Under the pieces are notes generated by a model. The model saw only the letters and a program-made list of their open reading frames with translations, was not told where the DNA came from and searched no databases. Source: a virus (lineage: Duplodnaviria > Caudoviricetes). Taken from it: 64,000 nucleotides of DNA. The translations under genes were made by a program, and so were the position numbers. Of the stretch, positions 5,732 to 39,618 are shown in pieces; positions within the stretch are counted from its first letter, which is position 1, and every line of letters begins with the position of its first letter. The stretch spans positions 32,001 through 96,000 of IMG/VR virus record IMGVR_UViG_3300037067_016725. One strand, 5' to 3'.

Positions 5732-7857
5732 TGGCTGACCTGTCTTTTTACATACCTAAGGATAAGGGTTTGGGGTACCATGTAGGAAGCCTGCCAAGTG
5801 TGGTAGGTCTTTCCTCCGTTGTTTTTACTGGTACAGGGATTCCGGTGGAGTCTGACAGCACCTGTGGTATGTATATCTCGGACAGTGACTATGCCAGCCT
5901 TACCTATCCCTTAACCTTTACAGCTACAGTTACTTCCTTGGTGGACAGCAGTGTTCTAACACATAACATCACCTTGGGGTTAGCTACAGTAAGTAGCACT
6001 AAGCTTTCCACGGTATATGTTAATCCAATAAATGGAAGCAACAACGCTGAGGGTACTGAGCTGGGGCCCATATCCTCCTTGGACTTGGCTCTAGAGAAGG
6101 TAAGGTATGCAGGTACAATCCTTCTGTATGAAGGTGGGTATGGGTCCAGGACTTTCGACCAGGTCCCTATAACTGTTAAGGCTCTTAAGGGTAATCTTCC
6201 TTTCTTTTTAGATATAACCTCTACGGTATCCTCCTCCTATACCTTTGAAGGTTTGACCTTTTTTGGTACGGGGTTGTCTGTAGAAGGGGATGACAGCGGG
6301 GTTGGAAGTCTAACCCTCCGAGGGTGCCAATGGCTGGGTGCAAGTTCTACCTTATCTTGTACCGGTTATAGATATCTGTCTGTAATGCAGAATTACATGA
6401 AGGGTGTCAGTGGTATTCACATAACGGTAAATAATGTTCAGGAAGCTGCATTCACATCTAATATGATCAGTGGCAGTGGTATAGGCTCTTTTATCGTGGA
6501 AGGAACTCATTACTTCACTCTGATGTACAATACGATAAACTATATAGGGACCTTCTCGCTACCAGATGTAGAGGGATCCACAGGTGTTGCCTCTGGAGGG
6601 GTGATCTACCATACCATTGACGAAGCATATACAAAGCAGATTGTGTTCCCTGCATCCTTCAACTACGATGGTCAAGGAAGGCCCTCTGTTGCCATAAATA
6701 TGTTGTCAGGAGCGGAACAGACTTACGGCTTGGATTGGGCTGCTTATGGAAGCATTATCTCTTGGGAAGGATTAGGTGGGGATAAGGACACCTTTGCCTC
6801 AGAAGAGGAAGCCCTGGAAAATGGTGCCTTTATGCCAGGGGATAAGCTCAGGATTATTTATCAGTTTGATGTTGCTGAAGCAAACTACACCTATCGTGTG
6901 GATTCCAACAATCTGACATCAATAGGTACTTTCCATTTTGGTACTTTCACTGCTCTTAATGTTTACTACAATAACTTTTTCAACACTTTTGTGGAAGGGG
7001 CAACTCTATCCACAACTAACATTACAGTAGACCCTTTATATACCAGTGCTATTACCGGTGATCTTTCCTTGCTCAGTGGCTCGCCTGATATCGGTGCAGG
7101 ACGCCCCTGGGATACAGGGAGCTTGAGTATTCCTAAGAATGCCCTTTACCAGAATATGCAGGATATTGCCTCTGCTAACCGCATACAGTTAGGGGTTACA
7201 GACATTGGTGCAAAAGAGACACTGCTTAACGTCCTGCTAAACACATCTCTGTCTGTTTTTATAAAAGAGGGTTCTTATGACCTTATCCGTTCAGGGACTG
7301 AAAGCAGTCCTATAAAAAGAGTCAGTGCTGCCATGAAGGGCAATTCCTCAAAACCGGTAAAGGTAATTCTTGGGGAAGAGACCCAAGGAGTATCCACGCG
7401 AAAGGATTACTTCGATGAGAAGGTTATAGAGCTTACCTCAGTACCTATAGGGGTAGCCGATATTCGGCCCGTAGTTGCTGATCTAGAGAAAAGTGACTAT
7501 GCCGTCATCAATCCAATGGACTCCTTTATACCTTATTCTTCCGATGAGGGTAAGGTGTTTGTGGCTCCTTCAGGTGATGATGATATTGGAGAAGGTACCC
7601 TGGAGAAACCTTACCGGACAATAGATGTGGCTATTGCAAAAAGTGCTGCACCCACCATCTGTGTTCTTGCGGGAAGCTACCCAATGTTTACGGGTGCTGC
7701 AGGCAGAACCCTTGTGTTTATCAAGAACATACAAACAATGGGGCCCGAGGATGCTTTCTTGTTTGATGGCTTTACTGCTGCCTCTTGGGTAATCACAGAA
7801 AGCACGGGTACTACCTACACTATAAACGATAGAAAGCTAACTATAGCCCACCCCTAG
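5731..7857 (+). CDS. Pectin-lyase-like/DUF1565 beta-helix virion protein (neck appendage or fibre-like)
   Basis: Two DUF1565-type starts (VYVNPINGSNNAEGTELGP; VFVAPSGDDDIGEGTLEKPYRTI) and C-cap DPLY..GDLSLLSGSPDIGAG. Confidence 0.65.
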   Translation: MADLSFYIPKDKGLGYHVGSLPSVVGLSSVVFTGTGIPVESDSTCGMYISDSDYASLTYPLTFTATVTSLVDSSVLTHNITLGLATVSSTKLSTVYVNPINGSNNAEGTELGPISSLDLALEKVRYAGTILLYEGGYGSRTFDQVPITVKALKGNLPFFLDITSTVSSSYTFEGLTFFGTGLSVEGDDSGVGSLTLRGCQWLGASSTLSCTGYRYLSVMQNYMKGVSGIHITVNNVQEAAFTSNMISGSGIGSFIVEGTHYFTLMYNTINYIGTFSLPDVEGSTGVASGGVIYHTIDEAYTKQIVFPASFNYDGQGRPSVAINMLSGAEQTYGLDWAAYGSIISWEGLGGDKDTFASEEEALENGAFMPGDKLRIIYQFDVAEANYTYRVDSNNLTSIGTFHFGTFTALNVYYNNFFNTFVEGATLSTTNITVDPLYTSAITGDLSLLSGSPDIGAGRPWDTGSLSIPKNALYQNMQDIASANRIQLGVTDIGAKETLLNVLLNTSLSVFIKEGSYDLIRSGTESSPIKRVSAAMKGNSSKPVKVILGEETQGVSTRKDYFDEKVIELTSVPIGVADIRPVVADLEKSDYAVINPMDSFIPYSSDEGKVFVAPSGDDDIGEGTLEKPYRTIDVAIAKSAAPTICVLAGSYPMFTGAAGRTLVFIKNIQTMGPEDAFLFDGFTAASWVITESTGTTYTINDRKLTIAHP

Positions 7858-7863
7858 GTATTT

Positions 7864-8679
7864 ATGTTCAAGATGAAAAGTAATGCCATATTCAAGAACA
7901 AGAACCTTGTGAATAACGAGGCGGAGGGGGTGTACCTTAAGTTTTCTGTATCCTCCTCGACTAACCCTGTGTTACTCAATGTTTCCTTGAAGAATCTTTA
8001 CCATAACATACAGTTTTCCATGACCCCTGAGAAATTGGGGATAGCGATAGCAACACCAACTAATAGTACCAACCTCGATGGAGACTCTTTGACTTCTGTT
8101 AGTGGACAGTCCCTGTTTCTACCTTGGAATGGGTCTTTTCCTGATACCATTGTTGAGCTACGTGTGAAGGGAAAGGACTTATCCGCAAAGATGTACTCCT
8201 CGACCTTTTCCAAAACAGTAGCCTATCATATGGAGCTAGATAGTCTGGGAGCACCCCTCTTTGACGGGTATGAGGGATGGCAAATTTATATAGACAGCGA
8301 AGGGGACCCCGTCTCTGAGTCAATTATTAGGAATCTTATTATTCTTGCAGGGGATATTGGGGAGATAGAAACCTACTCAATCGTTCAGGAATTTTTTGAC
8401 CTAACAGACTATATTGCTGCTCATAAGTTTGTTCACTTGAAATACGTCCCCAGTGGGAAGGTGGCTGTGAATATAGGGCAGGCAACAACACAAGGGCAGG
8501 GGGTAGACTTTGAGGTGACCTATAATACTCTCTCCTGGGGGAACATGGGGTTAGATACTCCGCTAATGAAGGCGGGGGTAGTTATAAGGGTTATCTATGA
8601 GACTGCCGGTTTGATAAGATATTCCACCAAACAGACCATAGGAAGAAATATTGTTTCCTTGAAGGGGCCAGGTGCATGA
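7864..8679 (+). CDS. Virion protein, beta-sandwich plus shared C-terminal beta module (271 aa)
   Basis: ORF; C-terminal region resembles 5471..5731. Confidence 0.55.
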   Translation: MFKMKSNAIFKNKNLVNNEAEGVYLKFSVSSSTNPVLLNVSLKNLYHNIQFSMTPEKLGIAIATPTNSTNLDGDSLTSVSGQSLFLPWNGSFPDTIVELRVKGKDLSAKMYSSTFSKTVAYHMELDSLGAPLFDGYEGWQIYIDSEGDPVSESIIRNLIILAGDIGEIETYSIVQEFFDLTDYIAAHKFVHLKYVPSGKVAVNIGQATTQGQGVDFEVTYNTLSWGNMGLDTPLMKAGVVIRVIYETAGLIRYSTKQTIGRNIVSLKGPGA

Positions 8680-10061
8680 CAGAGATAAATAGAACAAGTC
8701 TTGTTCAGGGAATGGGCAGCCCCAATTTCAACCTTCCCTACAGGGGACCCTACAAGGCCCCCTCGTTGCCATTGCCCCCGGCTAATGTATTTGTGACTAG
8801 CCCCTATCTCATAGGGGTCTTGGACATACGTTGGGATAATCCCGCTAAGATTCCCTACAACAGTGACCTTACCGTGCTTGGGGTGAACATCTATAGGGCT
8901 TTCGATGCTCCTGGGGCAACATATCGAAAGCTGAACATTAATCCTGTCTCTAGCCTTACCTGGAGGGACCAAACTTCAGAGGTACTGGTATCCCAGGAAG
9001 ATGTACTGCCTACTCTTAACCCAGGTAATAACCCTGATAAAAGGTGGTACTTTACAACAAAGTTCAAACCCCTAATATCTGTAGGCACAAATGGACAAGG
9101 GCAGGTCAGCCCCTCTGATATCATGCTGGAGATTGATAATGGGTCAGGCTATGTGGTAGTCCCTGCTTTCAAGGTGGTGCCCGAAGAGGGTCTGGTATAC
9201 CTGAACATTAACCGTACCTATGACCCCCAGCAAAATATGTATATGCCTCCAGTACTGCCCGATATGCTAAACGGGGGTATCAGGGTTACCTACTACTATC
9301 TATCGGGCCTAATCGCCACGGACTATTACAGAAAACTTTACTACAAGGTGACAACGGTAGCACGGGACGAGGCCACAGGGGAAGTAAGAGAAACCCCTTT
9401 GGATGAGGTGGAAGCCAAGACTCCTTATCAAATGGAGGAGACAGACTGGATCTGGAAGGAAGCTATCCGTAGAAACAGGTGGCTTCTAGAAAGAGAAGGT
9501 GAGAGGGTGAAACTCTTTTTGAGGAAGTGGAACGGTGTACGCTGCACATGCTATGACGACACTTATGGGTACTCCAAGGGAATAGGACTAAAAAAGGGTG
9601 GATGTCCTGTATGCTTTGGTACCGGATTTGTTGGTGGCTATGAGGGTCCTTATGATATACTCATAGCTCCTCCTGAGACAGAGAAGCAGGTAAGCCTTAC
9701 TGATGCAGGGTTTCATGTTATCTATGATTGGCAGACGTGGACAGGTCCTGAACCACTAATTACTGATAGGGATGTCATTATCAGACAGAATAACGACAGG
9801 TCCTTTATAAATAGACCTAACCCCCAGGGAAGCCGTGGAGCTATCTATCAGCAGCATTTCAGTTTAGATCATGTTGATCAAACTGACCCAATATACTTGA
9901 TACCCGTTAACGGAGGGGAGATAGCAACCCCAGCCTCCTGGAATGCCTTCAGGGAAGCCCAGCCCTCAGATGCGAGCCCGGTTATACCTGTCAAGCCAAC
10001 TGTACCCGAGGGTGTTCTACCCAAGGGGAGGACTGTTACTTTTGAAAATATCACTGTGTAA
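8676..10061 (+). CDS. Putative head-closure/neck protein with FN3-like domain and Zn-binding motif
   Basis: PPANV..IRWDNP..GVNIYR..YYKVTTV (FN3-like); RCTC...CPVCFGTGFVGGY; position. Confidence 0.6.
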   Translation: MTEINRTSLVQGMGSPNFNLPYRGPYKAPSLPLPPANVFVTSPYLIGVLDIRWDNPAKIPYNSDLTVLGVNIYRAFDAPGATYRKLNINPVSSLTWRDQTSEVLVSQEDVLPTLNPGNNPDKRWYFTTKFKPLISVGTNGQGQVSPSDIMLEIDNGSGYVVVPAFKVVPEEGLVYLNINRTYDPQQNMYMPPVLPDMLNGGIRVTYYYLSGLIATDYYRKLYYKVTTVARDEATGEVRETPLDEVEAKTPYQMEETDWIWKEAIRRNRWLLEREGERVKLFLRKWNGVRCTCYDDTYGYSKGIGLKKGGCPVCFGTGFVGGYEGPYDILIAPPETEKQVSLTDAGFHVIYDWQTWTGPEPLITDRDVIIRQNNDRSFINRPNPQGSRGAIYQQHFSLDHVDQTDPIYLIPVNGGEIATPASWNAFREAQPSDASPVIPVKPTVPEGVLPKGRTVTFENITV

Positions 10062-10072
10062 CTTCTAAGGGG

Positions 10073-10085
10073 ATAATCTTCTAAT
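10073..10085 (+). promoter_or_regulatory. Putative late promoter motif ATAATCTTCTAAT
   Basis: Intergenic copy heading the unit that contains the actin gene. Confidence 0.65.
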
Positions 10086-10150
10086 CTAAAAAGGGGTTAG
10101 TAAGACTTTTTCACAATAGCCATTGTGATTTTCCTTTAGGAGTACATACC

Positions 10151-10759
10151 ATGAGCAGATTAGTAACAGCCGCCACCCAGCTTCTAAAACTGGCTGATGA
10201 GCTAGAAGCCCAGGCTGAATCCAAGACAGCCTTTGTTTGTGCAGGTTGCGGACATGTTAATACCCTGGGTGGTATTAACTCTGCTATTCGCAAGTATGCT
10301 TCCGAACAGGTGGAGCCCTTTGATCTCCAGAACAACCTGGTTACCGTGGATGACTCCTGCAAGTGCCCCTCTTGTGGAGGGGCTATGAAATACATGCCCA
10401 CAGCAGAAAGTGAAAAGTTCTATGTCGTTATGGCTGATGAGGGTCCAGAGTCCCCAGTAGTTCCTGAAGGTGTACCAGGCATTCTTCCTGAAGGTACTCC
10501 GGTCACCCCAGAAGTAGCAGTCCCGGGAGAAGGTATTCCCCCTGAAGTGCCTGAAGTGCCTGAGGGGTCTGAGTCACCCGAAGCAGCTCCTGCTGCCCCC
10601 GGAACTGAGATCCCCGGAACTGAGATCCCCGGTGCTGAAGGGATTCCTATGGGTTCCCCAGAAGAGGGGAAAAAGGATGACGATGACGATGACGATGACG
10701 ATGATGCCACCCCAGAAGTTGTGATAAACCAGGAAAAACTGGCCATGTACCTGGGCTAA
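10151..10759 (+). CDS. Zn-ribbon protein with Pro/Glu-rich and poly-Asp tail (202 aa)
   Basis: CAGC...CKCPSC; PEG-type repeats; D10 tract; AGGAG RBS. Confidence 0.7.
   Translation: MSRLVTAATQLLKLADELEAQAESKTAFVCAGCGHVNTLGGINSAIRKYASEQVEPFDLQNNLVTVDDSCKCPSCGGAMKYMPTAESEKFYVVMADEGPESPVVPEGVPGILPEGTPVTPEVAVPGEGIPPEVPEVPEGSESPEAAPAAPGTEIPGTEIPGAEGIPMGSPEEGKKDDDDDDDDDDATPEVVINQEKLAMYLG
10597..10632 (+). repeat. 15-bp in-frame tandem repeat CCCCGGAACTGAGAT x2.4 (PGTEI)
   Basis: Read directly from sequence. Confidence 0.85.
10676..10705 (+). repeat. (GATGAC)4 GATGAT microsatellite encoding Asp10
   Basis: Read directly from sequence. Confidence 0.85.
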
Positions 10760-10771
10760 CCAAGTGGACCC

Positions 10772-11434
10772 TTGTTTAGACAAGGGTCTCCCTTATACTA
10801 CATAATAAATATGATTCGAGTAAAAGGTACAGATTTTAAGACTGTCGAACTCCCCGATCTAGGGGATAGGATTTTCTTTGGCCAAACTAAGTCTTATTCA
10901 GAAAATGCTTTTTCCTCTTCAAGGGATCTGGCTGAGGCAATCAAAAATAATAGGGTAGCTGTTGTTTCCGGTACAGAACCCCCTCCTTCCCTTTACCTTT
11001 CTAAAAAGAAAGAAGTTACAGAAATATCTATCCCTGTAGAACCCTCTAAGGTAGAAGAACCTCCTAAAGTAGAGGTAGTTCCTGTTCCTGCTCCTGAGGT
11101 ATCTTCTGCGGTACTGGACAAGATCACTGACGTTCTAGGGGAGATACAGAATACCCTAAAGACACAGAGGGAAGATACCACTAAGGCTATACAGGAGAAC
11201 ACCACTAGGGTAGAAAAGGCCATGGCTGGTTTAACTATCTCTGGTGTTAATGTATCCTCTCCTGTAAGGTCAACACATACCCGGGTGGAAGAAGTCTTTG
11301 TACCCAGTACACTCACAGTAACCGACATGACGAATCACGTTAACCTGAAGACCCAAGAGATTGGACAAGGGGACTCGGTTCGAAATTCACTGAACAAGCT
11401 AAAGAAGCTGAAAAATCAGCCCGCACAAGGCTAA
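10772..11434 (+). CDS. Hypothetical protein upstream of actin (globular N-domain, Pro-rich linker, coiled coil, basic C-terminal helix); candidate actin adaptor
   Basis: Domain-like composition of the translation; start uncertain (TTG 10772 or ATG 10811). Confidence 0.55.
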   Translation: MFRQGSPLYYIINMIRVKGTDFKTVELPDLGDRIFFGQTKSYSENAFSSSRDLAEAIKNNRVAVVSGTEPPPSLYLSKKKEVTEISIPVEPSKVEEPPKVEVVPVPAPEVSSAVLDKITDVLGEIQNTLKTQREDTTKAIQENTTRVEKAMAGLTISGVNVSSPVRSTHTRVEEVFVPSTLTVTDMTNHVNLKTQEIGQGDSVRNSLNKLKKLKNQPAQG

Positions 11435-11445
11435 GGAGATAACAC

Positions 11446-12453
11446 ATGGCAAAGGGACTAGACATCGGAACTTGTTTTCTTGTAGGAGCTTCCTACACCG
11501 ATAAAACGGAAATGGCAGGGGTAGGTATAAAGTCAGTAAGGGATGCCTTCCTCGACTTGGAGAATGAGCCTACTATCAAGAACGTACTCAAGATGAGCAA
11601 AGCTCACTATATTGAGAAAGAAGACACCGTATACATTATTGGGGATTCTGCCCTCCGTATGGCAAATCTCCTTAAAAAGGAGATCCGTAGGCCTCTTTCC
11701 CAGGGTGTTATCGCCGCCGGAGAAAGAGAGGCCGAAAAGATTCTTGTTATGCTTCTAAAGGAAGTCGTAGGAGAACCCGAAAAGGGCGGGGAGACTGTGT
11801 ACTTCTCCGTCCCGGCAGCGCCCATTGACAAGGTCGCGGATGTCATCTATCACGAAGCTATCTTCAAAAAGATACTGACGGATTTTGGATACAAAGCTGT
11901 GGCTATGAATGAGGCGGCTGCAGTGGTTTACTCCAATGCAGAACCCGAAGGGTTTACCGCTCTGGGCATTTCTTTTGGGGCGGGCATGACCAATGCCGCA
12001 CTCCTATACCAAAGCATGCCTGGAATGCAGTTTTCAGTAGCCCGAGGTGGTGACTGGATTGATGCAGGATCTGCAGGTGCTACTGGTCGTACCCAAGCCC
12101 AAATCATGGCTACAAAGGAAAAGGGGGTAGATCTCCTGAAACCGGAAGCTGGTGACCCCAAGACCACTCGGGAAAGGGAAGCAGTTGCGGTCTACTACAA
12201 GAATCTGATCAACTACGTCGTGGAGTCCATCAAAAAGGAATTCCGGAAGACGGAAAGTGCAGTACAGATTGACTGCCCTATCCCTATCATTATCTCTGGG
12301 GGAACTTCCAAGGCAGGAAACTTCTTGGAATTGTTCAAGCAGGAGTTCTCCAAGATTAAGGATTTCCCTTTCGAAGTTTCCGAAATCCGCATGGCCCAGG
12401 ATCCCCTGGCTGATGTAGCTAAGGGACTCCTGATCGCGGCTTCCCTGGACTAA
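11446..12453 (+). CDS. Actin-like ATPase (MreB/MamK-related)
   Basis: Phosphate-1 GLDIGT, RRPLSQGVI, SVP, connect-1 NEAAAVV, phosphate-2 ISFGAGMTN, ARGGDWID, adenosine IIISGGTS, connect-2 DVAKGL; AAGGAG RBS. Confidence 0.9.
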   Translation: MAKGLDIGTCFLVGASYTDKTEMAGVGIKSVRDAFLDLENEPTIKNVLKMSKAHYIEKEDTVYIIGDSALRMANLLKKEIRRPLSQGVIAAGEREAEKILVMLLKEVVGEPEKGGETVYFSVPAAPIDKVADVIYHEAIFKKILTDFGYKAVAMNEAAAVVYSNAEPEGFTALGISFGAGMTNAALLYQSMPGMQFSVARGGDWIDAGSAGATGRTQAQIMATKEKGVDLLKPEAGDPKTTREREAVAVYYKNLINYVVESIKKEFRKTESAVQIDCPIPIIISGGTSKAGNFLELFKQEFSKIKDFPFEVSEIRMAQDPLADVAKGLLIAASLD

Positions 12454-12458
12454 GCTGA

Positions 12459-12500
12459 AGGCTGGGACGATAATTTCCTAATCGTTCCAGCCTGTTTTTT
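12459..12500 (+). terminator. Rho-independent terminator whose loop carries the late motif (ATAATTTCCTAAT, 12470-12482)
   Basis: 13-bp stem AGGCTGGGACGAT/ATCGTTCCAGCCT (one G-U) followed by GTTTTTT. Confidence 0.75.
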
Positions 12501-12515
12501 ACAGGCGGTTACCCG

Positions 12516-13898
12516 ATGCTCGAAAACAACCTCTACCAGGTTATTAAGAAAAGGATGCTAGACGAGATGAATGATTCTCTTCGTCGTCATCCTGTATACC
12601 GTGGGGATGTTAAGGCATACGGTAAATATCACATGGGCAAGGAAAGGCCTCAGGTTGGAGTAAGCCTAGTTAACGTAGGCAGTAATCGTGAGACCCTGAG
12701 CCCGGATGATACCCTGGGGGACCTTATTTCTATGGTGGTTGCTACCCGTGTAGGGAACTGTCCTGGGACAAGTATCGAATGGGTTTGGGAGAATTCTGCT
12801 AACATCTCCAAGTACGTGAAAGATGAGGTAGCCACAGGAACCCTTAGCCCTGATCGAATGGCATTCACTACAAGCCATCCTTTTGTTACAGAGGGACCCC
12901 AGAGCCCTAACCCCGCCAGCAATGTGGGTCAAGTCCGAGTCTATGTAGGCGGTAAACATCAGATACCTAGAAGTATTGATGCAAGTACCGGAAGAGTTGT
13001 GTTGTACTCTGCGGTACCCTCCAATACGGAAGTACTGGTATCCTACTATTATAAGGACGTGGATCCTCCCGGATTCTACTTCATAGAAATTCTGGATAAA
13101 ACATCATTCATAATGACACCCATGTTCTCCGTAGAGGAAGAGCTGGTTGCCCCTAAGGTTACGGGTACTGAGACCACCCTGAACCTGGCCAACGCCCCTG
13201 TTCTGGTGGACTACGTTCTTTCCCTTTACCTTAGGTGGTCTCCAACAGCTCCAAGGGTATTCTTGGATAGAAACGTGGACTACACCATCTTAGAGGATGG
13301 AACCATTACTATTCTAACCCCACTTCCTGCAGGGTACTCCCTATATGCCTCTTACAGATGGAGGGGTGCTAACAAGGGACCTTTTACAATTGATGGGGAG
13401 TATTCATTCAATACTGATGCCATCAAAGGTGTAGTTCTGGCATTTGGGTCTAGAGTGGAGGAAGGGGACAAAGTTTGTGTTGTCTTCACAGACAAGAGGG
13501 AAAGATGTGCCCAAGTAAAAGGTGGACACTATATAATGAATTTTGAGTGGAAGGTTTTTTCCAGGGATCCCATGACCACCTCGGAAATAACTGACCATCT
13601 GGTTTCTGATATCTGGGCATTCCGAAAGGAACCCTTAAGAAGTGAAGGGATTACTGTACAAGACTGTACAGGGAGTGGAGAAGCAGAATCCTCTTATGAT
13701 GATGCCACCCAGGCCATGTATTTTGAAAGTTCTATCTCCATGGAGATCAGAACAGAATGGAAACTCTTTATCCCATACATACTGAAACTAAAACAGTATC
13801 GAGATTTGACTCAGTATCACCATTCTTATGGAAACACTGAGATAGTCAACTATACCACAATCAGGGCACCTGAACTTGGGTACCCAACAATAGTATAA
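12516..13898 (+). CDS. Putative tail terminator/tail completion protein with inserted beta modules
   Basis: Position before sheath; N- and C-terminal terminator-like alpha/beta segments (ERPQVGVSLV...FEWKVFSRDPMTTSEITDHL). Confidence 0.55.
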   Translation: MLENNLYQVIKKRMLDEMNDSLRRHPVYRGDVKAYGKYHMGKERPQVGVSLVNVGSNRETLSPDDTLGDLISMVVATRVGNCPGTSIEWVWENSANISKYVKDEVATGTLSPDRMAFTTSHPFVTEGPQSPNPASNVGQVRVYVGGKHQIPRSIDASTGRVVLYSAVPSNTEVLVSYYYKDVDPPGFYFIEILDKTSFIMTPMFSVEEELVAPKVTGTETTLNLANAPVLVDYVLSLYLRWSPTAPRVFLDRNVDYTILEDGTITILTPLPAGYSLYASYRWRGANKGPFTIDGEYSFNTDAIKGVVLAFGSRVEEGDKVCVVFTDKRERCAQVKGGHYIMNFEWKVFSRDPMTTSEITDHLVSDIWAFRKEPLRSEGITVQDCTGSGEAESSYDDATQAMYFESSISMEIRTEWKLFIPYILKLKQYRDLTQYHHSYGNTEIVNYTTIRAPELGYPTIV

Positions 13899-13916: not shown

Positions 13917-14351
13917 ATGCCTACATACAGATATACCTGCGAAACTTGCAAGCAGGAAACAGATCTTTTGGTTCTTCCGAAGGTAAGGGACAGTCAGGTA
14001 TGCAATACCTGTGGTAGCCCCCTGGTAAGGAAAGGTTCTGAGGGGTTCTCAGTAAATACACCTTTGGACACAAGTAAGAAGGATGCCTACTCGAACTCTG
14101 AAATAGACAAGGTCATAGGAGCCTCTGCATCTAAAAAGTGGGACAAACTCCATAAGAAAATAGATGAGAAGCTGGCAGGACCCAATGTGGTAACTGTAGA
14201 CATCAAGCCCGGCCAACCTTTCAACCCTGAGCATCTGCTAGGTGACTCCGAGAGAAAAGAAAAAGCGGCTATTTACTCAAAACACGTCAAAGACACTCCC
14301 TCTGAAACCTTGGGGCTTGAAAAGTCCGGTTTTAAGAGAGTTGATATCTAG
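13917..14351 (+). CDS. FmdB-family zinc-ribbon protein
   Basis: MPTYRYTCETC...CNTCGS signature; AGGAG RBS. Confidence 0.8.
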   Translation: MPTYRYTCETCKQETDLLVLPKVRDSQVCNTCGSPLVRKGSEGFSVNTPLDTSKKDAYSNSEIDKVIGASASKKWDKLHKKIDEKLAGPNVVTVDIKPGQPFNPEHLLGDSERKEKAAIYSKHVKDTPSETLGLEKSGFKRVDI

Positions 14352-14360
14352 TAAACCCAG

Positions 14361-14373
14361 ATAATCTTCTAAT
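14361..14373 (+). promoter_or_regulatory. Putative late promoter motif ATAATCTTCTAAT upstream of sheath
   Basis: Intergenic copy. Confidence 0.7.
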
Positions 14374-14500
14374 TCACGTAGGGGCATTAACGAAATTAGT
14401 GCCCTGTGGTTTTCTGTACACTGCCTGCGGGAGCACTCAACTGAAAGATACCTTGCACCCAATGCAAGTTAAGGCACGGCAGAAAACGAGGAGATACATC

Positions 14501-17356
14501 ATGGCTATTGGACCATTGGAAGAGTTTGCTTTCCCAGGTACCTACACAAGGACCTTTACAGAGGCTCCCAAGGCTACTGCCGCAGGTGCCCAGCGTTATG
14601 CAGCCCTGATCGGGGTAGGTCCTGAGGAAGAAAGGATCGAAGGTTTTGAAATGGTCCGTGGTTCCTCTGCCACGGCTGCCAATATCATTCTAGGCGAAGT
14701 CGCCCTTGAGAATGGTCGTGGTAACGTCGTGGATGGTGTGAACGTAGATTTCTACGTAAGGCACTACCCTATCGTCGTAAACGACGGACAAGGCACCTAC
14801 GCAACACAGCCCAGCGATGTCATCGTTGCTGTGAATGGTGAGAATGTGCCAGTGCAGTCGGTGTCCGCTTTGACCGGAAAGATTACCCTGGTGAATCCCC
14901 CTTCCGCAGGGGATCTGGTAGTACTGAACTACTATTTCAAGCGTCGAGACCTGTACGTTGAAAATGAAGACCAGAGCACTCAAGCTGATGGTTCCACAAC
15001 CATTTTCAAGGTAGGTGCCTCTCGTATCGTTACTGGTGACAACGGTGGCAACAGTGCTACCAGCTCCATCATTGATGGTAGTACTGGTTTCAGCTATACT
15101 GTGAAGAATGAGATCAACGGTCTCATGATAACCGTCCCCATCCTCCAAGTTTTGGTGAATGGTGAAGTGGCTGCTATTTCCGCGGTATCTGGTGCCTATG
15201 GTACTTTCACTCTGGCAACTGCCCCTGCTGCAGGAGCCGAGGTGCTAGTTAGCTACTTCCGTAATGACTGGCAGAACACCTTTGATATCCTACCCGCGGC
15301 ATATGTCGCTAATATTACTCAGGTTGGTTTTACCCCGGGTAGAACTGACTTCAAGGGTGACGTGGACTATGTCCTAGCCAATGAGAATGAGATCCATTGG
15401 GGTAACTCTTTCTCTGTTACCGCAGGTGTCAATACCTCAGGTACCTCTGTCTTCGGGCCTAACCAGGTTGCTGGTTCCCAAGTGGACTACCGCTATTACA
15501 TGGTGGAGGCTACATCCAGTGCCTCAAGTTCCAAGCAGTATGTGCTTCCCTACACTCCTGTTAATGGGGATGGTACTGGCACTCCTATGACAGCCCCCAA
15601 CAACAACACCGCAAGTACCTACGACGATCTCGTGGCCTATGTTGGTGTGGACGAAGAAGCTGCCAAGACCAATCCGGTTACCGTGGTCAGCATCAGTGGT
15701 TCTGTCATCACCCTGAGAACAGCTCCTGCTACTGGTATGAAAGTGTTTGTGAGCTACTTTGTGAACAAGCTTACTGATGACACTTGGACAATCACAAACA
15801 AGGTGTCTGGTGATACTGGTGTAGGAAAATATACCGTTATCGGTTCTTCCCTAGGCAATGCCCGTCAGGTGGTTCTTGATAGTGCCAGCACTTCCACTGC
15901 TACATTCCTTGATACAGGTGTTGTGGTGTGGGATGGCGTTGCTGGTACAAGCAATGCCTACATCAACCCCTCTCGCGTATTTGGTGATGAGACCATCACC
16001 GTTACTGTAGATGCTGCAGGTGCCTTCATTGTCACCTCAAACGTGGCAACGGGTACAGGGTCGGGGACAGTGAACACGGGCTTGGTAGGCAAGACCTACA
16101 TTGACCCCATCACAGGTTTCACTTTCGCACTTGCTACTGCCACTGCAGGTACCCTGGTATTTAAGGTTACCAAGACCTTCACTATCTTGAACCAGTGGGA
16201 TCTAAGTATTCCTGGTATCCGCCTGAGTGTTACTGACACTTCTGACGTAGGTACTTCTGATACGGCTATCCTGGATACTTTCAACTTGGTAGAAGATACC
16301 GAACCTAGCAACGGTGACAACTACTATGTCACTTTTGATAAGGAGAAGATTGACTACTCCGCTAAGTATGTCACTTCCTTCCCCGAAGTAGTTACAAAGT
16401 TTGGTGCTCTGGCTCAGAATAACCCCATTGTTATGGGTGCCTACCTGTACTTCAAGAATGGTGGCCAAGCTTTGGTTATCAAGCAGATCAAGAAGGCAAC
16501 TGGTAGCAATGATGCATCCGTGGCTTCATACATCGAAGCTATAGATACTTTCAATGAGCCTATCTCCAATGGTACTCGTCCTTCCTTGGTTAGTGTGATG
16601 ACAACTAACCGTCAGGTTACCAACTACCTGAAGACCTCTAATGCTCAGCAGTCCAGCATTCGTTTCCAGAATGAGAGGACTTCTTATGCAGGTGTGGCAG
16701 CAGGTACGGTTCCCGAGGATGTACTCGCTTATGCAAAGGCTTTGTCTACAGAGCTGATTACCCTGGTCTATCCGGACTCGGCCATCATGACTATCCCTGA
16801 CTCCAATGGGGTTGATCAGGATATCCTGGTTGGTGGTGAATACATTGCAGTAGCCCTTACCGGTGCTGATGTTTCCCCTACCTATGATATTGCAACTCCT
16901 CTCACGGGTGTGCAGTTGGTTGGCTTGTCTCGCCTGGGTAGGATTCTGACAAAGGCAACTGCCGCATTGGTAGCCCAGAATGGTGTTACCGTGATGGAAT
17001 ACAAGAACAATGTCATCAGGGTGATGATGGGTCTTACTACAGACCTGACTTCTCCTTTGACAAGGGATCCCCGTATTATCGAAATCAAGCACTTCGTACA
17101 GCAGGGTGTCCGTGAGGTGTGTGACAAGTTCATTGGCCGCAAGAACATTGGTGGAATCACCAATGAGATTAAGACAGCCTTGGTCTCTTACTTCAACTCG
17201 CTGAAGGGTGTATACCTGATTGGTGGGTTTGACAGTAACATGACTGTGGAAGTTGATGCTAATGATCCAACTATTGTCAATGTGGCAGTTCAGTACAAGC
17301 CGATCTTCGGTGTTAACTGGATCATGGTTACTCACTACCTCAGAAGTACCCTGTAA
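14501..17356 (+). CDS. Contractile tail sheath protein (951 aa) with extra beta domains
   Basis: N-terminal PGTYTR..AALIGVG; C-terminal sheath core (YLYFKNGG, LVAQNGVTVM, VEVDANDPTIVNVAVQYKPIFGVNWI); GAGGAG RBS before ATG 14501. Confidence 0.9.
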   Translation: MAIGPLEEFAFPGTYTRTFTEAPKATAAGAQRYAALIGVGPEEERIEGFEMVRGSSATAANIILGEVALENGRGNVVDGVNVDFYVRHYPIVVNDGQGTYATQPSDVIVAVNGENVPVQSVSALTGKITLVNPPSAGDLVVLNYYFKRRDLYVENEDQSTQADGSTTIFKVGASRIVTGDNGGNSATSSIIDGSTGFSYTVKNEINGLMITVPILQVLVNGEVAAISAVSGAYGTFTLATAPAAGAEVLVSYFRNDWQNTFDILPAAYVANITQVGFTPGRTDFKGDVDYVLANENEIHWGNSFSVTAGVNTSGTSVFGPNQVAGSQVDYRYYMVEATSSASSSKQYVLPYTPVNGDGTGTPMTAPNNNTASTYDDLVAYVGVDEEAAKTNPVTVVSISGSVITLRTAPATGMKVFVSYFVNKLTDDTWTITNKVSGDTGVGKYTVIGSSLGNARQVVLDSASTSTATFLDTGVVVWDGVAGTSNAYINPSRVFGDETITVTVDAAGAFIVTSNVATGTGSGTVNTGLVGKTYIDPITGFTFALATATAGTLVFKVTKTFTILNQWDLSIPGIRLSVTDTSDVGTSDTAILDTFNLVEDTEPSNGDNYYVTFDKEKIDYSAKYVTSFPEVVTKFGALAQNNPIVMGAYLYFKNGGQALVIKQIKKATGSNDASVASYIEAIDTFNEPISNGTRPSLVSVMTTNRQVTNYLKTSNAQQSSIRFQNERTSYAGVAAGTVPEDVLAYAKALSTELITLVYPDSAIMTIPDSNGVDQDILVGGEYIAVALTGADVSPTYDIATPLTGVQLVGLSRLGRILTKATAALVAQNGVTVMEYKNNVIRVMMGLTTDLTSPLTRDPRIIEIKHFVQQGVREVCDKFIGRKNIGGITNEIKTALVSYFNSLKGVYLIGGFDSNMTVEVDANDPTIVNVAVQYKPIFGVNWIMVTHYLRSTL

Positions 17357-24956: not shown

Positions 24957-26537
24957 ATGAACGAGAATGATTTAACATATGTATTTGGAAGGAAGCTGAA
25001 GGATGCAGGGGACACTGTTCTTCCTGATTCTGCTTTACCGACAATCGGAAATGGGATAGACACATATTCTCTCTCTATTAAAACACATACTGACGTTACC
25101 TCGGTTTTATCGGGTTTCAAAAAGGAGGGGTACCTTCCCTTCCTGATATCTCAGATAGACTCTAACAGAATAGCTAGCTCCTGGAAACTAGGGTTACTTG
25201 TAAATCCTTCTGATATAAATTTTGGTTCTTCACAAAATGTGGATACCAAGTTTGGACGCAATTCCCATATAGTGACATTGTGGGGTGCAAGCCAGTTAAC
25301 CATTACTGGAAACGGATCTTCTGCAGCCTTTTTTGACCCTGACACGGGTTTGGCGGACGTATTCACTCGAAAGACTACTAAGGCTTATGCCAATCTAATG
25401 TCCTTTGTTCAGACAATGCGGAACAATGGGTATTATGCTCTATCCACCACTAAAATGGTGGAGGTGCGTAGGGAGAGCTCTTTCCAAGAGGGAGACAATA
25501 GTGCAACGGGGGAAGATGCTGCTCAAAAAGAGAAGAATAGTCAGAATGTGTCTTCTGTAGAAAACACGGGAAACCCCTTGTCCTCCTCTAAAGATGGGGA
25601 ATCATACATTACCCCTATTGTGGGAGGAAACAATAACAGAGTCATTCATGTTATGGACAACATGTCCATTTCTTATGGAGGCACTTCCTACTTAGGGTCC
25701 TTTGCATCTTTCTCTATAGAAGCTTCGGGGGATTCCCCCTATTCATTAAAGTATTCCTTTGTTTTCATAGTGTCTGGTCTTGACGGGGATACCGTAGATG
25801 GCCATATCAATGATGGAAATAATAAGGACACAGGGATAGTTGTAGGGAAGCAGGGGACTAACTTTATATATTCCCTTGGTATAAGTAAGGACTTCCTGGG
25901 AAAGGCCTCGGGAATGGCCAGCTATCTCATAAACACAGCAGATACCCAACTCTCCGGTAAATACTATTTGCCAACACCAACCAGTTATGGGGCCCTGGCA
26001 ATCCCCCCAGAGTGGGAAGCTGTTGTTAAAAGTGCTGCACAGGCTAATGGAATCCTTCCCTCTTATGTAGCAACGGTTATTTGTAACGAGTCTGGTTGGA
26101 ATCCTAAGGCAAAAGGTCCTGCAGTGACGGGGTCCACTACTGCCAGCAACAATGGTAGACATGCTTTGGGCCTAGGACAGTTTATGCCAGCCACAGCAGA
26201 GGATCAGCATCTTGCAGGAGCAATCGCCAACACTACCGATGACCCTAACAATACTCGGGATCAGAGGCTAGACCCGGTAAAAGCAATAAATGCTGTAGCC
26301 CGATACTTGGCCCAGCTTCTAAGGGGGCAGGGAAATGTGATTGAGCTGGGGGTAGCAGCATACAACGCGGGTCCGGGTACCGTGAACAATGCAGTAGCAA
26401 AATGTGGGGGAGATCGTGAAAATCCAAATGTGATTTCTCTTCTTCCTAGACAGGAAACAAAAGACTATGTTGCTAGGTTTTTAGCCAGGCAAAAAGGCTA
26501 TTCTTATTTAGATTCAACCGGTGTACTTCAGGAATAA
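24957..26537 (+). CDS. Tube initiator-like domain fused to C-terminal lytic transglycosylase (SLT)
   Basis: N-part LLVNPSDI...YLGSFASFSI..DSPY parallels the previous gene; SLT motifs NESGWNP, GLGQFMPATA, AAYNAGPG, ETKDYV. Confidence 0.85.
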   Translation: MNENDLTYVFGRKLKDAGDTVLPDSALPTIGNGIDTYSLSIKTHTDVTSVLSGFKKEGYLPFLISQIDSNRIASSWKLGLLVNPSDINFGSSQNVDTKFGRNSHIVTLWGASQLTITGNGSSAAFFDPDTGLADVFTRKTTKAYANLMSFVQTMRNNGYYALSTTKMVEVRRESSFQEGDNSATGEDAAQKEKNSQNVSSVENTGNPLSSSKDGESYITPIVGGNNNRVIHVMDNMSISYGGTSYLGSFASFSIEASGDSPYSLKYSFVFIVSGLDGDTVDGHINDGNNKDTGIVVGKQGTNFIYSLGISKDFLGKASGMASYLINTADTQLSGKYYLPTPTSYGALAIPPEWEAVVKSAAQANGILPSYVATVICNESGWNPKAKGPAVTGSTTASNNGRHALGLGQFMPATAEDQHLAGAIANTTDDPNNTRDQRLDPVKAINAVARYLAQLLRGQGNVIELGVAAYNAGPGTVNNAVAKCGGDRENPNVISLLPRQETKDYVARFLARQKGYSYLDSTGVLQE

Positions 26538-39120: not shown

Positions 39121-39618
39121 ATGATCTTCGATCCGAAAAGCCTGGTAGAAGCCCCAAGGGCACAGACCTTTGAATGGTTCTTGAAAATAGCAAGGATGTC
39201 CCACCAGCAACGGATGCAGGCTATTCCTGTTATTGAGGGGGAGATACAGGGGATACTGGACTATATCTCAGATTTGAAAAAGGCTGAGGAGAATTATTTG
39301 GATAAGCTAGGGTTCAGGGGTGATGTGTATACAACACTTCCAGAGTTTGATAGCTCTGTTAGAAACACAGCAGCTATGAACTTGGGGACCGTAGATTTTG
39401 TGGAGAACACAAAATCGGGGGATAGTTCCTTGGTAAGGGTAAGCCAGCAAGATGTTCAGTTGGGCATGATCAGTGTACTGCAGAAAATCCGTAACGAGGA
39501 TAGGTACCTCCGTAGGATAAACTACAAGATTCTGAATGCAAAACTACAGGCTAACCTCAAAATGGAAACTCTCCGAAAATTGAAGGAAGATAAGGTAGCT
39601 GTCGAGAATAAGGGATAA
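39121..39618 (+). CDS. Hypothetical helical protein (165 aa)
   Basis: ORF in operon. Confidence 0.6.
   Translation: MIFDPKSLVEAPRAQTFEWFLKIARMSHQQRMQAIPVIEGEIQGILDYISDLKKAEENYLDKLGFRGDVYTTLPEFDSSVRNTAAMNLGTVDFVENTKSGDSSLVRVSQQDVQLGMISVLQKIRNEDRYLRRINYKILNAKLQANLKMETLRKLKEDKVAVENKG

What the first reader, a model, noticed from the sequence alone, without database searches (positions are those of the whole stretch)
10073..12500. Late-expressed phage actin module inside the virion morphogenesis cluster: Zn-ribbon acidic protein, candidate adaptor, MreB/MamK-like actin
Seen: 11446..12453 carries the actin-fold motifs, including MreB-like RRPLSQGVI. It sits between neck and tail-terminator genes, not near replication genes. 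The three-gene unit starts at the same motif that precedes the sheath (10073) and ends at a terminator (12459-12500). The gene before it has a small globular domain, Pro-rich linker, coiled coil and basic C-terminal helix. Known: several jumbo phages use tubulin PhuZ filaments to position DNA and traffic capsids, and plasmid actins (ParM) work with adjacent adaptors. Inference: this could be an actin-based filament plus adaptor for capsid transport or assembly-site organisation, or a virion-packaged actin or host MreB antagonist.
Basis: partly seen in the sequence, partly recalled or inferred. Interest (0 to 1): 0.85.

Follow-up and report, generated by a model that had tools for sequence, protein, structure and literature searches.

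The report
Huge-phage volactin-type actin with adaptor
An uncultured giant bacteriophage carries, just upstream of its tail-sheath gene, a strongly conserved actin of the "volactin" family and a partner protein that always accompanies it, so these phages probably build their own actin filaments late in infection, which no paper I could search describes.

Summary
ORF 11446-12453 is a genuine actin-fold ATPase. It matches Pfam Volactin PF25216 at 251 bits (cut-off 35). Its AlphaFold model (pLDDT 87) is closest to MamK, BeeR and MreB, not to Hsp70 or sugar kinases.

Its transcription unit runs from a promoter-like 14-mer also found before the sheath gene to a strong hairpin followed by a T-run.

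The gene order Zn-ribbon protein, 207-aa partner, actin, 460-aa virion protein was the same in all 20 viral contigs retrieved through the partner. The partner/actin/460-aa core persists where actin identity falls to 41-46%. The actin is the best-conserved protein of the block.

In a tree it lies in a 36-cluster clade (support 0.85). Every member whose context I sampled shows this synteny. The clade is separate from haloarchaeal volactins (38% identity) and other cellular members, so it is not a recent host capture.

The partner has a confident N-terminal domain, a disordered linker, a long helix and a conserved basic C-terminal helix.

Filament formation, partner binding and cargo are inferred, not shown. 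The "neck" and "tail terminator" labels are only weakly supported.

The scan had already found this family in at least eight other phage genomes. I found no paper describing it. Novelty: new variant of a known kind.

The parts
10072..10085 (+). Promoter-like 14-mer GATAATCTTCTAAT at the head of the three-gene unit
   Evidence: Six + strand copies of GATAATYTYCTAAT in the window against 0.09 expected. The identical 14-mer sits before the sheath gene. L003 and L004 keep it before their Zn-ribbon gene. That it is a late promoter is an inference.
10151..10759 (+). Zn-ribbon protein (202 aa): N-terminal helix plus a CxxC...CxxC domain (residues 1-95), a variable acidic Pro/Glu-rich tail, and a short conserved C-terminal peptide ...KLAMYLG
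   Evidence: Alignment A2 has invariant C30, C33, C72 and C75. There are no Pfam hits above threshold. It lies upstream of the partner in 18 of the 20 viral contigs; in the other two the contig end cuts off the upstream DNA. In L013 it is 120 aa and lacks the acidic tail. It was not detected in the more distant LR745208 locus (L011).
10811..11434 (+). Candidate adaptor (207 aa; the ORF opens at TTG 10772, but homologues support ATG 10811). No Shine-Dalgarno sequence is visible upstream.
   Evidence: AlphaFold model: N-terminal domain 1-53 at pLDDT above 90, disordered linker 55-98, helix 99-141, beta-hairpin 167-180, basic helix 190-202. The N-terminal domain and the C-terminal 45 residues are the conserved parts. 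There are 94 homologues and none has a Pfam family. It is single copy and adjacent to the actin. The actin follows in 20 of 20 contigs.
11446..12453 (+). Volactin-family actin ATPase (335 aa) with a strong Shine-Dalgarno sequence, AAGGAG
   Evidence: PF25216 at E 2.9e-74, 251 bits, full length. AlphaFold pLDDT 86.9. Foldseek top hits are MamK, BeeR and MreB. The catalytic Glu (NEA) aligns with MamK E143. It is the most conserved protein of the block.
12459..12500 (+). Intrinsic-terminator-like hairpin (13-bp stem) plus T6 that closes the actin unit. Its loop holds another copy of the promoter-like motif (12469-12482), ahead of the next gene.
   Evidence: Fold at -21.9 kcal/mol, z -4.97, and 0 of 200 shuffles fold as well. 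Motif hit.
12516..13898 (+). 460-aa virion protein that always follows the actin; possibly tail-terminator-like
   Evidence: It lies downstream of the actin in every contig with enough sequence. ESM Atlas leads point to SP10_terminator and Phage_tail_terminator_9. There is a weak DUF2460 match in 4 of 8 members and no PDB sequence hit. The label is a lead only.
8676..10061 (+).
   Evidence: It is syntenic in L003, L004, L013 and LR745208. The only family hits are weak: phrog_2806 (unknown function) and phrog_38102 'virion structural protein'. There is no PDB hit.
14501..17356 (+). Tail sheath (start ATG 14501 by homologue alignment; the ORF opens at GTG 14399), preceded by the promoter-like motif at 14360-14373 and by a 144-aa Zn_ribbon_8 protein at 13917-14351
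   Evidence: PF17482 Phage_sheath_1C and PF09723. Homologues align from residue 35. Sequence read.

Best explanation
This is a phage-encoded actin cytoskeleton module that is expressed with the virion genes.

Shown: gene 11446-12453 encodes a volactin-family actin ATPase with intact nucleotide-binding and catalytic motifs.

Inferred from family membership and extreme conservation: it polymerises into cytoplasmic filaments. It has no N-terminal extension that could form a membrane-binding amphipathic helix.

Inferred: the 207-aa protein encoded just upstream is its adaptor. The conserved basic amphipathic C-terminal helix, with the preceding beta-hairpin, docks on the actin. The conserved N-terminal globular domain, held on a flexible Pro-rich linker and a long helix, binds a cargo.

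Inferred: because the whole clade keeps the module in the virion gene block upstream of the sheath, under the same promoter-like motif as the sheath, the cargo is most likely a virion part or assembly intermediate. The filaments would position, move or concentrate very large heads and/or tails for assembly, doing for these tubulin-less megaphages what PhuZ does in Chimalliviridae.

The Zn-ribbon acidic protein is a subclade-specific third component of unknown role.
For: - Family and fold: PF25216 at 251 bits against a cut-off of 35. The AlphaFold model has pLDDT 87 and pTM 0.83. The nearest solved folds are all filament-forming actins: MamK, BeeR and MreB.
- Motifs: D6, G8, T9, E156, S176, G178, G180, G285, G286 and T287 are invariant. 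E156 aligns with the catalytic MamK E143.
- Family precedent: H. volcanii volactin, after which the family is named, forms dynamic filaments in vivo (PMC10869688).
- Conservation: the actin is the most conserved protein of the block. Against four relatives it is 79/67/62.5/56% identical, where the sheath is 68/62/43/37%.
- Inteins: LAGLIDADG inteins sit exactly at the phosphate-2 site in about 19 of 150 cluster representatives, which marks that site as one that cannot be lost.
- Synteny: partner then actin in 20 of 20 viral contigs found through the partner. The partner/actin/460-aa core persists down to 41-46% actin identity.
- Tree: the members I sampled with this synteny fall in one clade of 36 clusters (support 0.85), apart from 93 other clusters that include the haloarchaeal volactins.
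- Partner: the AlphaFold architecture fits an adaptor.
- C-terminal motif: a pattern phi-x-x-phi-[KR]-x-phi-[KR] ends 6 of 12 genes immediately upstream of volactin-family actins in unrelated contexts, against 1 of 41 other genes in this window. I chose the pattern after seeing the data.
- Transcription unit: shared promoter-like motif and a terminator-like hairpin.
- No tubulin: PF00091 gave no match in two related huge-phage records of 485 and 595 kb, nor in the three fragments. Each record has one volactin gene.
Against: - No polymerisation, interaction or localisation data exist, and I could not run a multimer prediction.
- The family-wide phosphate-2 motif is SxGxGMxN, not DxGxG. In MamK the corresponding Asp is reported to matter for ATPase activity (my recollection), so the kinetics may be unusual.
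- The cargo is inferred from gene neighbourhood only.
- The partner's N-terminal domain has no informative structural match: best PDB E 0.56, and only small uncharacterised phage proteins in BFVD.
- The 'neck' and 'terminator' identities of the flanking genes are weak.
- Other phages carry volactin-family actins in other contexts, for example next to DnaB (L021). The family is therefore not tied to morphogenesis as such.
- The host is unknown.
Confidence: 0.5

Rival explanations
1. ParMRC/AlpAC-like DNA positioning: the actin and partner move or segregate phage DNA (replication, partition in pseudolysogeny, or delivery of DNA to proheads) rather than virion parts.
For: Known phage and plasmid actins work this way: AlpC/AlpA of prophage CGP3 (PMC5539076) and ParM/ParR. 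Some cellular volactin-family proteins are fused to a ParB-type HTH. One phage-like contig has a family member beside DnaB. The first gene of the unit is a Zn-ribbon protein, a fold that can bind nucleic acid.
Against: The partner has no recognisable RHH, HTH or other DNA-binding domain. I found no iterated centromere-like repeats in or beside the unit; the only repeats are low-complexity repeats inside coding sequence. The module carries the promoter-like motif of the sheath gene and is fixed in the virion gene block upstream of the sheath across the clade. The Zn-ribbon gene is missing in the more distant members I checked.
Confidence: 0.13
2. Not a cytoskeleton. The actin-fold ATPase is a non-filamentous assembly chaperone, or a structural or ejected virion component of the neck-tail junction, comparable to the Hsp70 homologue of closteroviruses (my recollection). 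The partner would be its co-factor.
For: Its fixed position upstream of a candidate terminator and the sheath. The actin/Hsp70 superfamily includes chaperones. The unusual Ser in phosphate-2.
Against: The structural neighbours are filament-forming actins, and no Hsp70 or sugar kinase appears in the top 50. There is no substrate-binding domain. The family includes a proven filament former. The very high sequence conservation is typical of polymer-forming cytoskeletal proteins.
Confidence: 0.15
3. Host manipulation: late-made filaments, or interference with host MreB or division, reshape, enlarge or stiffen the cell to make room for very large virions or to time lysis.
For: Haloferax volactin affects cell shape. 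Earlier scan notes report that other phage clades pair the actin with membrane-anchored partners (I did not check this here).
Against: Identity to E. coli MreB is only about 25% over the part that aligned. There is no N-terminal extension that could form an amphipathic helix. The partner in this clade has no predicted transmembrane helix in its model. Strict linkage to the virion gene block would be unexplained.
Confidence: 0.1
4. A recently captured host gene with no phage-specific role.
For: Actin-like genes are common in cells, and three MAG contigs carry close relatives.
Against: Those three MAG contigs are short (3.7-29 kb) and come from three unrelated phyla, which fits mis-binned phage DNA. 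The phage clade is deep, with 41-79% identity inside it and a conserved partner and synteny. The closest named cellular proteins, haloarchaeal volactins, are only 38% identical and fall in the sister group.
Confidence: 0.02

Closest known systems
Volactin (VolA, HVO_2015) of Haloferax volcanii; Pfam PF25216 (Schiller et al. 2024, PMC10869688)
   Same: Same Pfam family by a wide margin (251 bits against a cut-off of 35). Identity to haloarchaeal family members is 38-39% over the full length, including one in Halogeometricum that lies near rdfA and an SMC-like gene. Both share the family signature SxGxGMxN at phosphate 2. In both, an upstream gene encodes a protein ending in a short amphipathic helix.
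   Different: The phage actin is encoded by a virus, in a separate deep clade. The upstream partner is a soluble protein with a small N-terminal domain, whereas the haloarchaeal neighbour looks like a multi-pass membrane protein. The gene is embedded in the virion gene block upstream of the sheath. No role in cell shape is implied.
MamK (with MamJ) of magnetotactic bacteria
   Same: It is the best solved-structure match by sequence (E 4e-6) and by fold. MamK is a cytoplasmic filament that organises bulky cargo through an acidic, repetitive linker protein. Here too an acidic repetitive protein is encoded in the unit.
   Different: Only about 18% identity. The phosphate-2 Asp of MamK is Ser here. 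No homology between the Zn-ribbon acidic protein and MamJ was tested or claimed.
AlpC/AlpA of Corynebacterium glutamicum prophage CGP3 (PMC5539076)
   Same: A phage-encoded actin with an adjacent adaptor gene.
   Different: AlpA binds DNA (alpS sites), and the system serves viral DNA transport and replication. Here the partner has no DNA-binding domain, I found no repeat array, and the module is in the late structural region. The actin families also differ: only Volactin appears in the Pfam scan.
ParMRC plasmid partition system
   Same: An actin ATPase plus a small adaptor that is thought to engage the filament through a C-terminal helix.
   Different: No centromere repeats, no RHH adaptor, and no plasmid context.
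PhuZ tubulin spindle of Chimalliviridae jumbo phages
   Same: A phage-made cytoskeletal polymer that positions large viral structures and delivers capsids. This is the proposed functional analogue.
   Different: PhuZ is a tubulin, not an actin. It is tied to the phage nucleus. No tubulin was found in these phages.

Membership tests
Volactin family (Pfam PF25216) | Score above the curated gathering threshold over the full-length model | tested here: met
   E 2.9e-74, 250.9 bits against a cut-off of 35, model positions 1-321 of 321. Same result from the genome search. It was the only Pfam family reported at E up to 0.1.
Volactin family (Pfam PF25216) | Actin (ASKHA) fold of the MreB/MamK type | tested here: met
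   AlphaFold pLDDT 86.9, pTM 0.83. Foldseek against PDB gives MamK, BeeR, MreB, crenactin and actin in the top ranks, at E around 1e-13 to 1e-11.
Volactin family (Pfam PF25216) | Nucleotide-binding motifs, including the family-typical SxGxGMxN phosphate-2 motif and the catalytic Glu | tested here: met
   DIGT, NEAAA, SFGAGMTN and SGGTS are invariant in the clade. The same signature occurs in nearly all 150 cluster representatives and in the haloarchaeal proteins. E156 aligns with MamK E143.
Volactin family (Pfam PF25216) | Dynamic filament formation in vivo, as shown for VolA | not testable with these tools
   Needs expression and imaging, or in-vitro polymerisation.
Volactin family (Pfam PF25216) | Orthology with haloarchaeal VolA (same subclade) | tested here: not met
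   In the FastTree rooted on E. coli MreB, the haloarchaeal proteins fall in the 93-cluster sister group, not in the 36-cluster phage clade. The phage actin is a family member but not an orthologue.
ParMRC / AlpAC-type actin DNA-segregation system | Adaptor with a DNA-binding domain (RHH or HTH) | tested here: inconclusive
   No Pfam, PDB-sequence or fold match of the partner to a DNA-binding domain. The small N-terminal domain has no assigned fold, so DNA binding is not excluded.
ParMRC / AlpAC-type actin DNA-segregation system | Iterated centromere-like repeats next to the operon | tested here: not met
   There is no intergenic repeat array in 9900-12600. The only repeats are coding low-complexity repeats. 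A site elsewhere in the genome is not excluded.
MreB (PF06723) proper | Match to the MreB_Mbl model above threshold, and a membrane-binding element | tested here: not met
   PF06723 was not reported for this protein at E up to 0.1. Identity to E. coli MreB is about 25% over the part that aligned. The protein starts MAKGLDIGT, with no N-terminal extension for an amphipathic helix.
Hsp70 / sugar-kinase branches of the ASKHA superfamily | Closest structural or sequence neighbours are chaperones or kinases | tested here: not met
   None appears in the top 50 Foldseek rows or among the PDB sequence hits.

The most novel reading that the evidence does not exclude
Huge phages of this lineage run an actin-based virion assembly line. 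Phage-made volactin filaments, through a dedicated soluble adaptor whose N-terminal domain grips a neck or tail component, transport or align giant heads and tails so that they can join in a crowded cell. This would be the first actin cytoskeleton devoted to virus morphogenesis in prokaryotes, and an actin counterpart of the PhuZ tubulin spindle.
Probability: 0.3. Interest if true: 0.85.

Novelty: new variant of a known kind. Interest (0 to 1): 0.68.

Why it matters
Phage-made cytoskeletons are so far known mainly from the tubulin PhuZ of nucleus-forming jumbo phages and from a few DNA-positioning systems such as TubZ and AlpC.

Here a deep and widespread lineage of uncultivated phages carries an actin that is more conserved than its own tail sheath. 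Contig lengths and CheckV estimates point to genomes of about 0.3-0.5 Mb. The actin is always paired with a modular adaptor and is wired into the late virion-gene programme.

If it polymerises and carries virion parts, actin-based intracellular transport would extend to bacterial viruses. That would help explain how particles too large to diffuse freely are assembled.

The finding also broadens the newly named volactin family. Members appear as a general "filament plus interchangeable adaptor" kit: with membrane partners in haloarchaea, ParB-HTH fusions in Planctomycetota, inside a gas-vesicle gene cluster, and here beside virion genes.

The protein is small and soluble, so it is directly testable in vitro.

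Tried and rejected
- PHROGs gave no family for the actin, the partner or the 460-aa protein.
- Profiles of the 460-aa and 461-aa proteins found nothing among PDB sequences. The 'terminator' and 'neck' labels therefore rest on weak leads.
- Fold searches with the partner model returned only generic coiled-coil matches for the long helix (VIA Z about 5), weak matches for the N-terminal domain (best PDB E 0.56, YqbF), and small uncharacterised phage proteins in BFVD. No function could be read from these.
- The word-indexed search with the Zn-ribbon domain found only 7 near-identical proteins, a limit of that index, so it says nothing about distribution.
- The genome-contig scan used patterns specific to the phage clade. 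It therefore could not find distant cellular members.
- I could not obtain the H. volcanii VolA sequence itself. I used haloarchaeal plasmid-borne family members instead.
- A second gene in the window (39121-39618) ends in a similar LRKLK tail, but it shows no relationship to the partner (hhalign probability 0.2%). I dropped it.
- hmmalign could not place MreB globally, so I added it with MAFFT for rooting.
- No multimer prediction was possible.
Full report
**What the window is.** The window is bases 32001-96000 of a 115.5-kb IMG/VR viral contig. CheckV rates the contig about 25% complete, which implies a genome of roughly 450 kb. All long ORFs are on the + strand. Recognisable genes are:
- a tail sheath (PF17482; 14399/14501-17356);
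- an SLT transglycosylase (24957-26537) and a baseplate-J protein (41615-44896);
- far downstream, an SNF2 helicase (59781) and a DnaB helicase (62347).

The finding therefore lies in the virion-morphogenesis region, about 2 kb upstream of the sheath.

**The observation.** Three consecutive + strand ORFs occupy 10151-12453.
- The first (202 aa) has an N-terminal helix and a CxxC...CxxC Zn ribbon, followed by a Pro/Glu/Val-rich acidic tail with a run of ten Asp.
- The second opens at TTG 10772. Every homologue aligns from residue 14, so ATG 10811 (207 aa) is the likely start. No Shine-Dalgarno sequence precedes it, whereas the actin has AAGGAG.
- The third (335 aa) carries the actin motifs DIGT, RRPLSQGVI, NEAAA, SFGAGMTN and SGGTS.

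The 14-mer at 10072-10085 is identical to the one at 14360-14373 before the sheath. The pattern GATAATYTYCTAAT occurs six times, always on the + strand, against 0.09 expected. Relatives keep it before their Zn-ribbon gene. Right after the actin stop codon, a 13-bp hairpin (-21.9 kcal/mol, z -5) and T6 close the unit. The hairpin loop holds another copy of the motif, ahead of the next gene. That the motif is a late promoter is an inference from the genes it precedes.

**The actin.** The protein matches Pfam Volactin (PF25216) end to end at 251 bits (cut-off 35). No other Pfam family was reported at E up to 0.1. Among 14 control genomes the model passes its cut-off in one only. H. volcanii is among the four that give any match, and it is presumably that one.

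By sequence, the only significant solved relative is MamK (E 4e-6). An AlphaFold model built on 17 relatives is confident (pLDDT 86.9, pTM 0.83). Its nearest solved folds are MamK, the BeeR filament, MreB, crenactin and eukaryotic actin. No Hsp70 or sugar kinase is in the top 50.

Seventeen relatives share 64% mean column identity, and all nucleotide-binding residues are invariant. E156 aligns with the catalytic E143 of MamK, and S176 with MamK D161. The Ser is not a phage peculiarity. SxGxGMxN is the phosphate-2 signature of almost the whole family, including the haloarchaeal proteins.

Haloferax volactin forms dynamic filaments in vivo (PMC10869688). Filament formation by the phage protein is therefore a reasonable inference, but it has not been shown.

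**Distribution and phylogeny.**
- The word-indexed protein search found more than 2,300 relatives. Many of the top hits sit on contigs of 100-500 kb.
- The exhaustive search of 50%-identity representatives found 1,009 clusters at E<1e-3 and 328 at E<1e-30.
- INPHARED holds only two matches, both uncultured huge phages: LR745208 (485 kb, 46% identity) and LR756511 (595 kb, 32%).
- A scan of 185,579 species genomes with clade-specific patterns found only three short MAG contigs from three unrelated phyla, most simply explained as mis-binned phage DNA.
- The named cellular relatives are haloarchaeal replicons at 38-39% identity. One of these genes lies four genes from an SMC-like gene and rdfA.

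I built a FastTree of 137 family sequences rooted on E. coli MreB. All the members I sampled with neck/tail synteny (the window, P0118, L009, LR745208, P0222, P0230) fall in one clade of 36 clusters (support 0.85). The other 93 clusters form the sister group (support 0.975). That group includes the haloarchaeal volactins, Planctomycetota proteins fused to a ParB HTH or to Wzz/ParA-like domains, a kinase fusion, a member inside a gas-vesicle cluster, and LR756511. The gene is thus an old component of this phage lineage, not a recent host capture.

**The partner and the synteny.** In the nine loci found through the actin, the order Zn-ribbon protein, partner, actin, 460-aa protein, Zn_ribbon_8 protein, sheath recurs wherever the contig extends far enough. 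The same holds on a 512-kb contig at 56% actin identity, where the Zn-ribbon protein has no acidic tail. The partner/actin/460-aa core also holds at 46%, 45% and 41% identity.

I then approached from the partner's side. A scan with its profile returned 20 viral contigs:
- all 20 carry the actin downstream on the same strand;
- 18 show the Zn-ribbon gene upstream; in the other two the contig end cuts off the upstream DNA;
- every contig with enough downstream sequence shows the 460-aa gene.

The partner is single copy. It has 94 detected homologues and no Pfam family.

The actin is the best-conserved protein of the block in every comparison (79/67/62.5/56% identity). The partner is the fastest evolving (39/35/27/25%). 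Its conservation is concentrated in the N-terminal 55 residues and the C-terminal 45 residues.

AlphaFold gives a confident N-terminal beta/alpha domain (pLDDT above 90), a disordered Pro-rich linker, a 43-residue helix, a beta-hairpin and a basic terminal helix.

The genes immediately upstream of volactin-family actins in unrelated contexts often end the same way, in a short amphipathic basic helix. These contexts include other phage clades, a gas-vesicle cluster and, more loosely, the haloarchaeal membrane-protein neighbour. A strict pattern is met by 6 of 12 such neighbours against 1 of 41 other genes in this window. I chose the pattern after seeing the data, so it is suggestive only. It fits a family-wide design: a conserved filament-binding tail on exchangeable cargo-binding heads.

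**Mechanism.** Best-supported reading: the unit makes actin filaments late in infection. The partner tethers them by its C-terminal tail to a cargo bound by its N-terminal domain. The fixed position upstream of the sheath and the shared promoter-like motif point to a virion part or assembly intermediate as that cargo. The two related huge-phage records (485 and 595 kb) and the fragments have no tubulin (PF00091) and a single volactin gene each. The actin could therefore be their only cytoskeletal polymer.
- Shown: family, fold, motifs, conservation, synteny and transcription-unit signals.
- Inferred: polymerisation, tail docking, cargo and timing.

Rival readings:
- A ParMRC/AlpAC-like DNA-handling role is weakened by the lack of a DNA-binding domain in the partner and of any centromere-like repeat array.
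- A non-filament chaperone or virion component is weakened by the structural neighbours and the family precedent.
- Host MreB antagonism is weakened by low identity to MreB, the lack of an N-terminal amphipathic helix and the dedicated partner.
- Recent host capture is contradicted by the tree.

**Flanking genes.** The 460-aa protein has Atlas leads to tail-terminator families (SP10_terminator, Phage_tail_terminator_9) and a weak DUF2460 signal. The 461-aa protein has only weak PHROG hits, one to a 'virion structural protein'.

**Literature and earlier scan notes.** Full-text searches found no description of an actin in huge or jumbo phage morphogenesis clusters. They covered volactin, phage-encoded actin, huge or jumbo phage with actin or MreB, and MamK with phage. 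A 2021 comparative genomics survey and a 2026 review of jumbo phage biology mention none.

The known phage actin with an adaptor is AlpC/AlpA (PMC5539076), a DNA-handling system of another actin family.

The scan itself had already flagged this family in at least eight other phage genomes with the same reading, and once more on this same stretch. Those notes are not independent evidence. I re-derived every claim I rely on here, except the membrane-anchored partners those notes report.

**Verdict.** This is a real, strongly conserved, phage-specific clade of the volactin actin family with a dedicated co-conserved adaptor, embedded in the late virion-gene programme of huge phages. It is a new variant of a known kind (phage cytoskeletal systems and the volactin family), with an untested but directly testable mechanism.

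Noticed in passing
L010:5995-8094 (= L029:4204-6303); proteins P0215, P0218 and about 17 other cluster representatives: The actin gene of some relatives is split by a 140-440-aa insert exactly at the phosphate-2 motif (...S|C...HN|C-GAGM...). Pfam finds Intein_splicing and LAGLIDADG domains. This is an intein in a phage actin active site, present in about 19 of 150 representatives.
   Followed up: partly
L022:8001-9044 (Minisyncoccales MAG contig, 47.5 kb): A volactin-family actin (41% identical to the window's) sits inside a gas-vesicle gene cluster (GvpA, GvpN-like AAA, GvpH, GvpF/L, GvpG, GvpO, GvpK). This suggests an actin that organises gas vesicles, as MamK organises magnetosomes.
   Followed up: no
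Proteins P0254, P0272, P0276, P0349, P0217, P0238, P0243: Cellular volactin-family proteins occur as fusions. P0254 and P0272 have an N-terminal ParB-type HTH; P0276, with C-terminal Wzz and ParA-like P-loop domains, is from a Planctomycetota MAG. P0349 carries a Ser/Thr kinase. P0217, P0238 and P0243 are tandem double actins.
   Followed up: partly
window 12459-12500: The promoter-like motif GATAATTTCCTAAT (12469-12482) lies in the loop of the terminator-like hairpin that ends the actin unit, directly ahead of the 460-aa gene. Termination and re-initiation therefore seem to be packed into one element.
   Followed up: partly
window 10768-10793: A short hairpin (GACCCTTGT-TTAG-ACAAGGGTC) lies between the Zn-ribbon gene and the partner gene. 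The partner lacks a Shine-Dalgarno sequence, while its neighbours have strong ones. This may set a low adaptor-to-actin ratio.
   Followed up: no
window 14399-14500 and 10772-10810: The longest-ORF starts are probably wrong for two genes. The sheath most likely starts at ATG 14501 (homologues align from residue 35, and GAGGAG lies upstream). The partner most likely starts at ATG 10811.
   Followed up: yes
L007:5050-5964 and 7190-8986; L036, L041, L042: Some relatives have an extra gene of about 304 aa between the partner and the actin, and one of about 598 aa between the actin and the 460-aa gene. The block tolerates insertions but keeps its order.
   Followed up: no
window 12516-13898 versus 14501-17356: Homologues of the 460-aa protein show weak similarity to the N-terminal part of the sheath (23% over 272 aa, E 5e-5 in a small database). 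This hints at a shared domain.
   Followed up: no
L021:2191-3180 and L012:7001-8020: Volactin-family actins of other clades occur in other phage contexts. One lies next to an M15 peptidase, a GIY-YIG nuclease and DnaB. Another lies in the 595-kb phage LR756511 beside PKD-domain proteins and a PD-(D/E)XK nuclease.
   Followed up: partly
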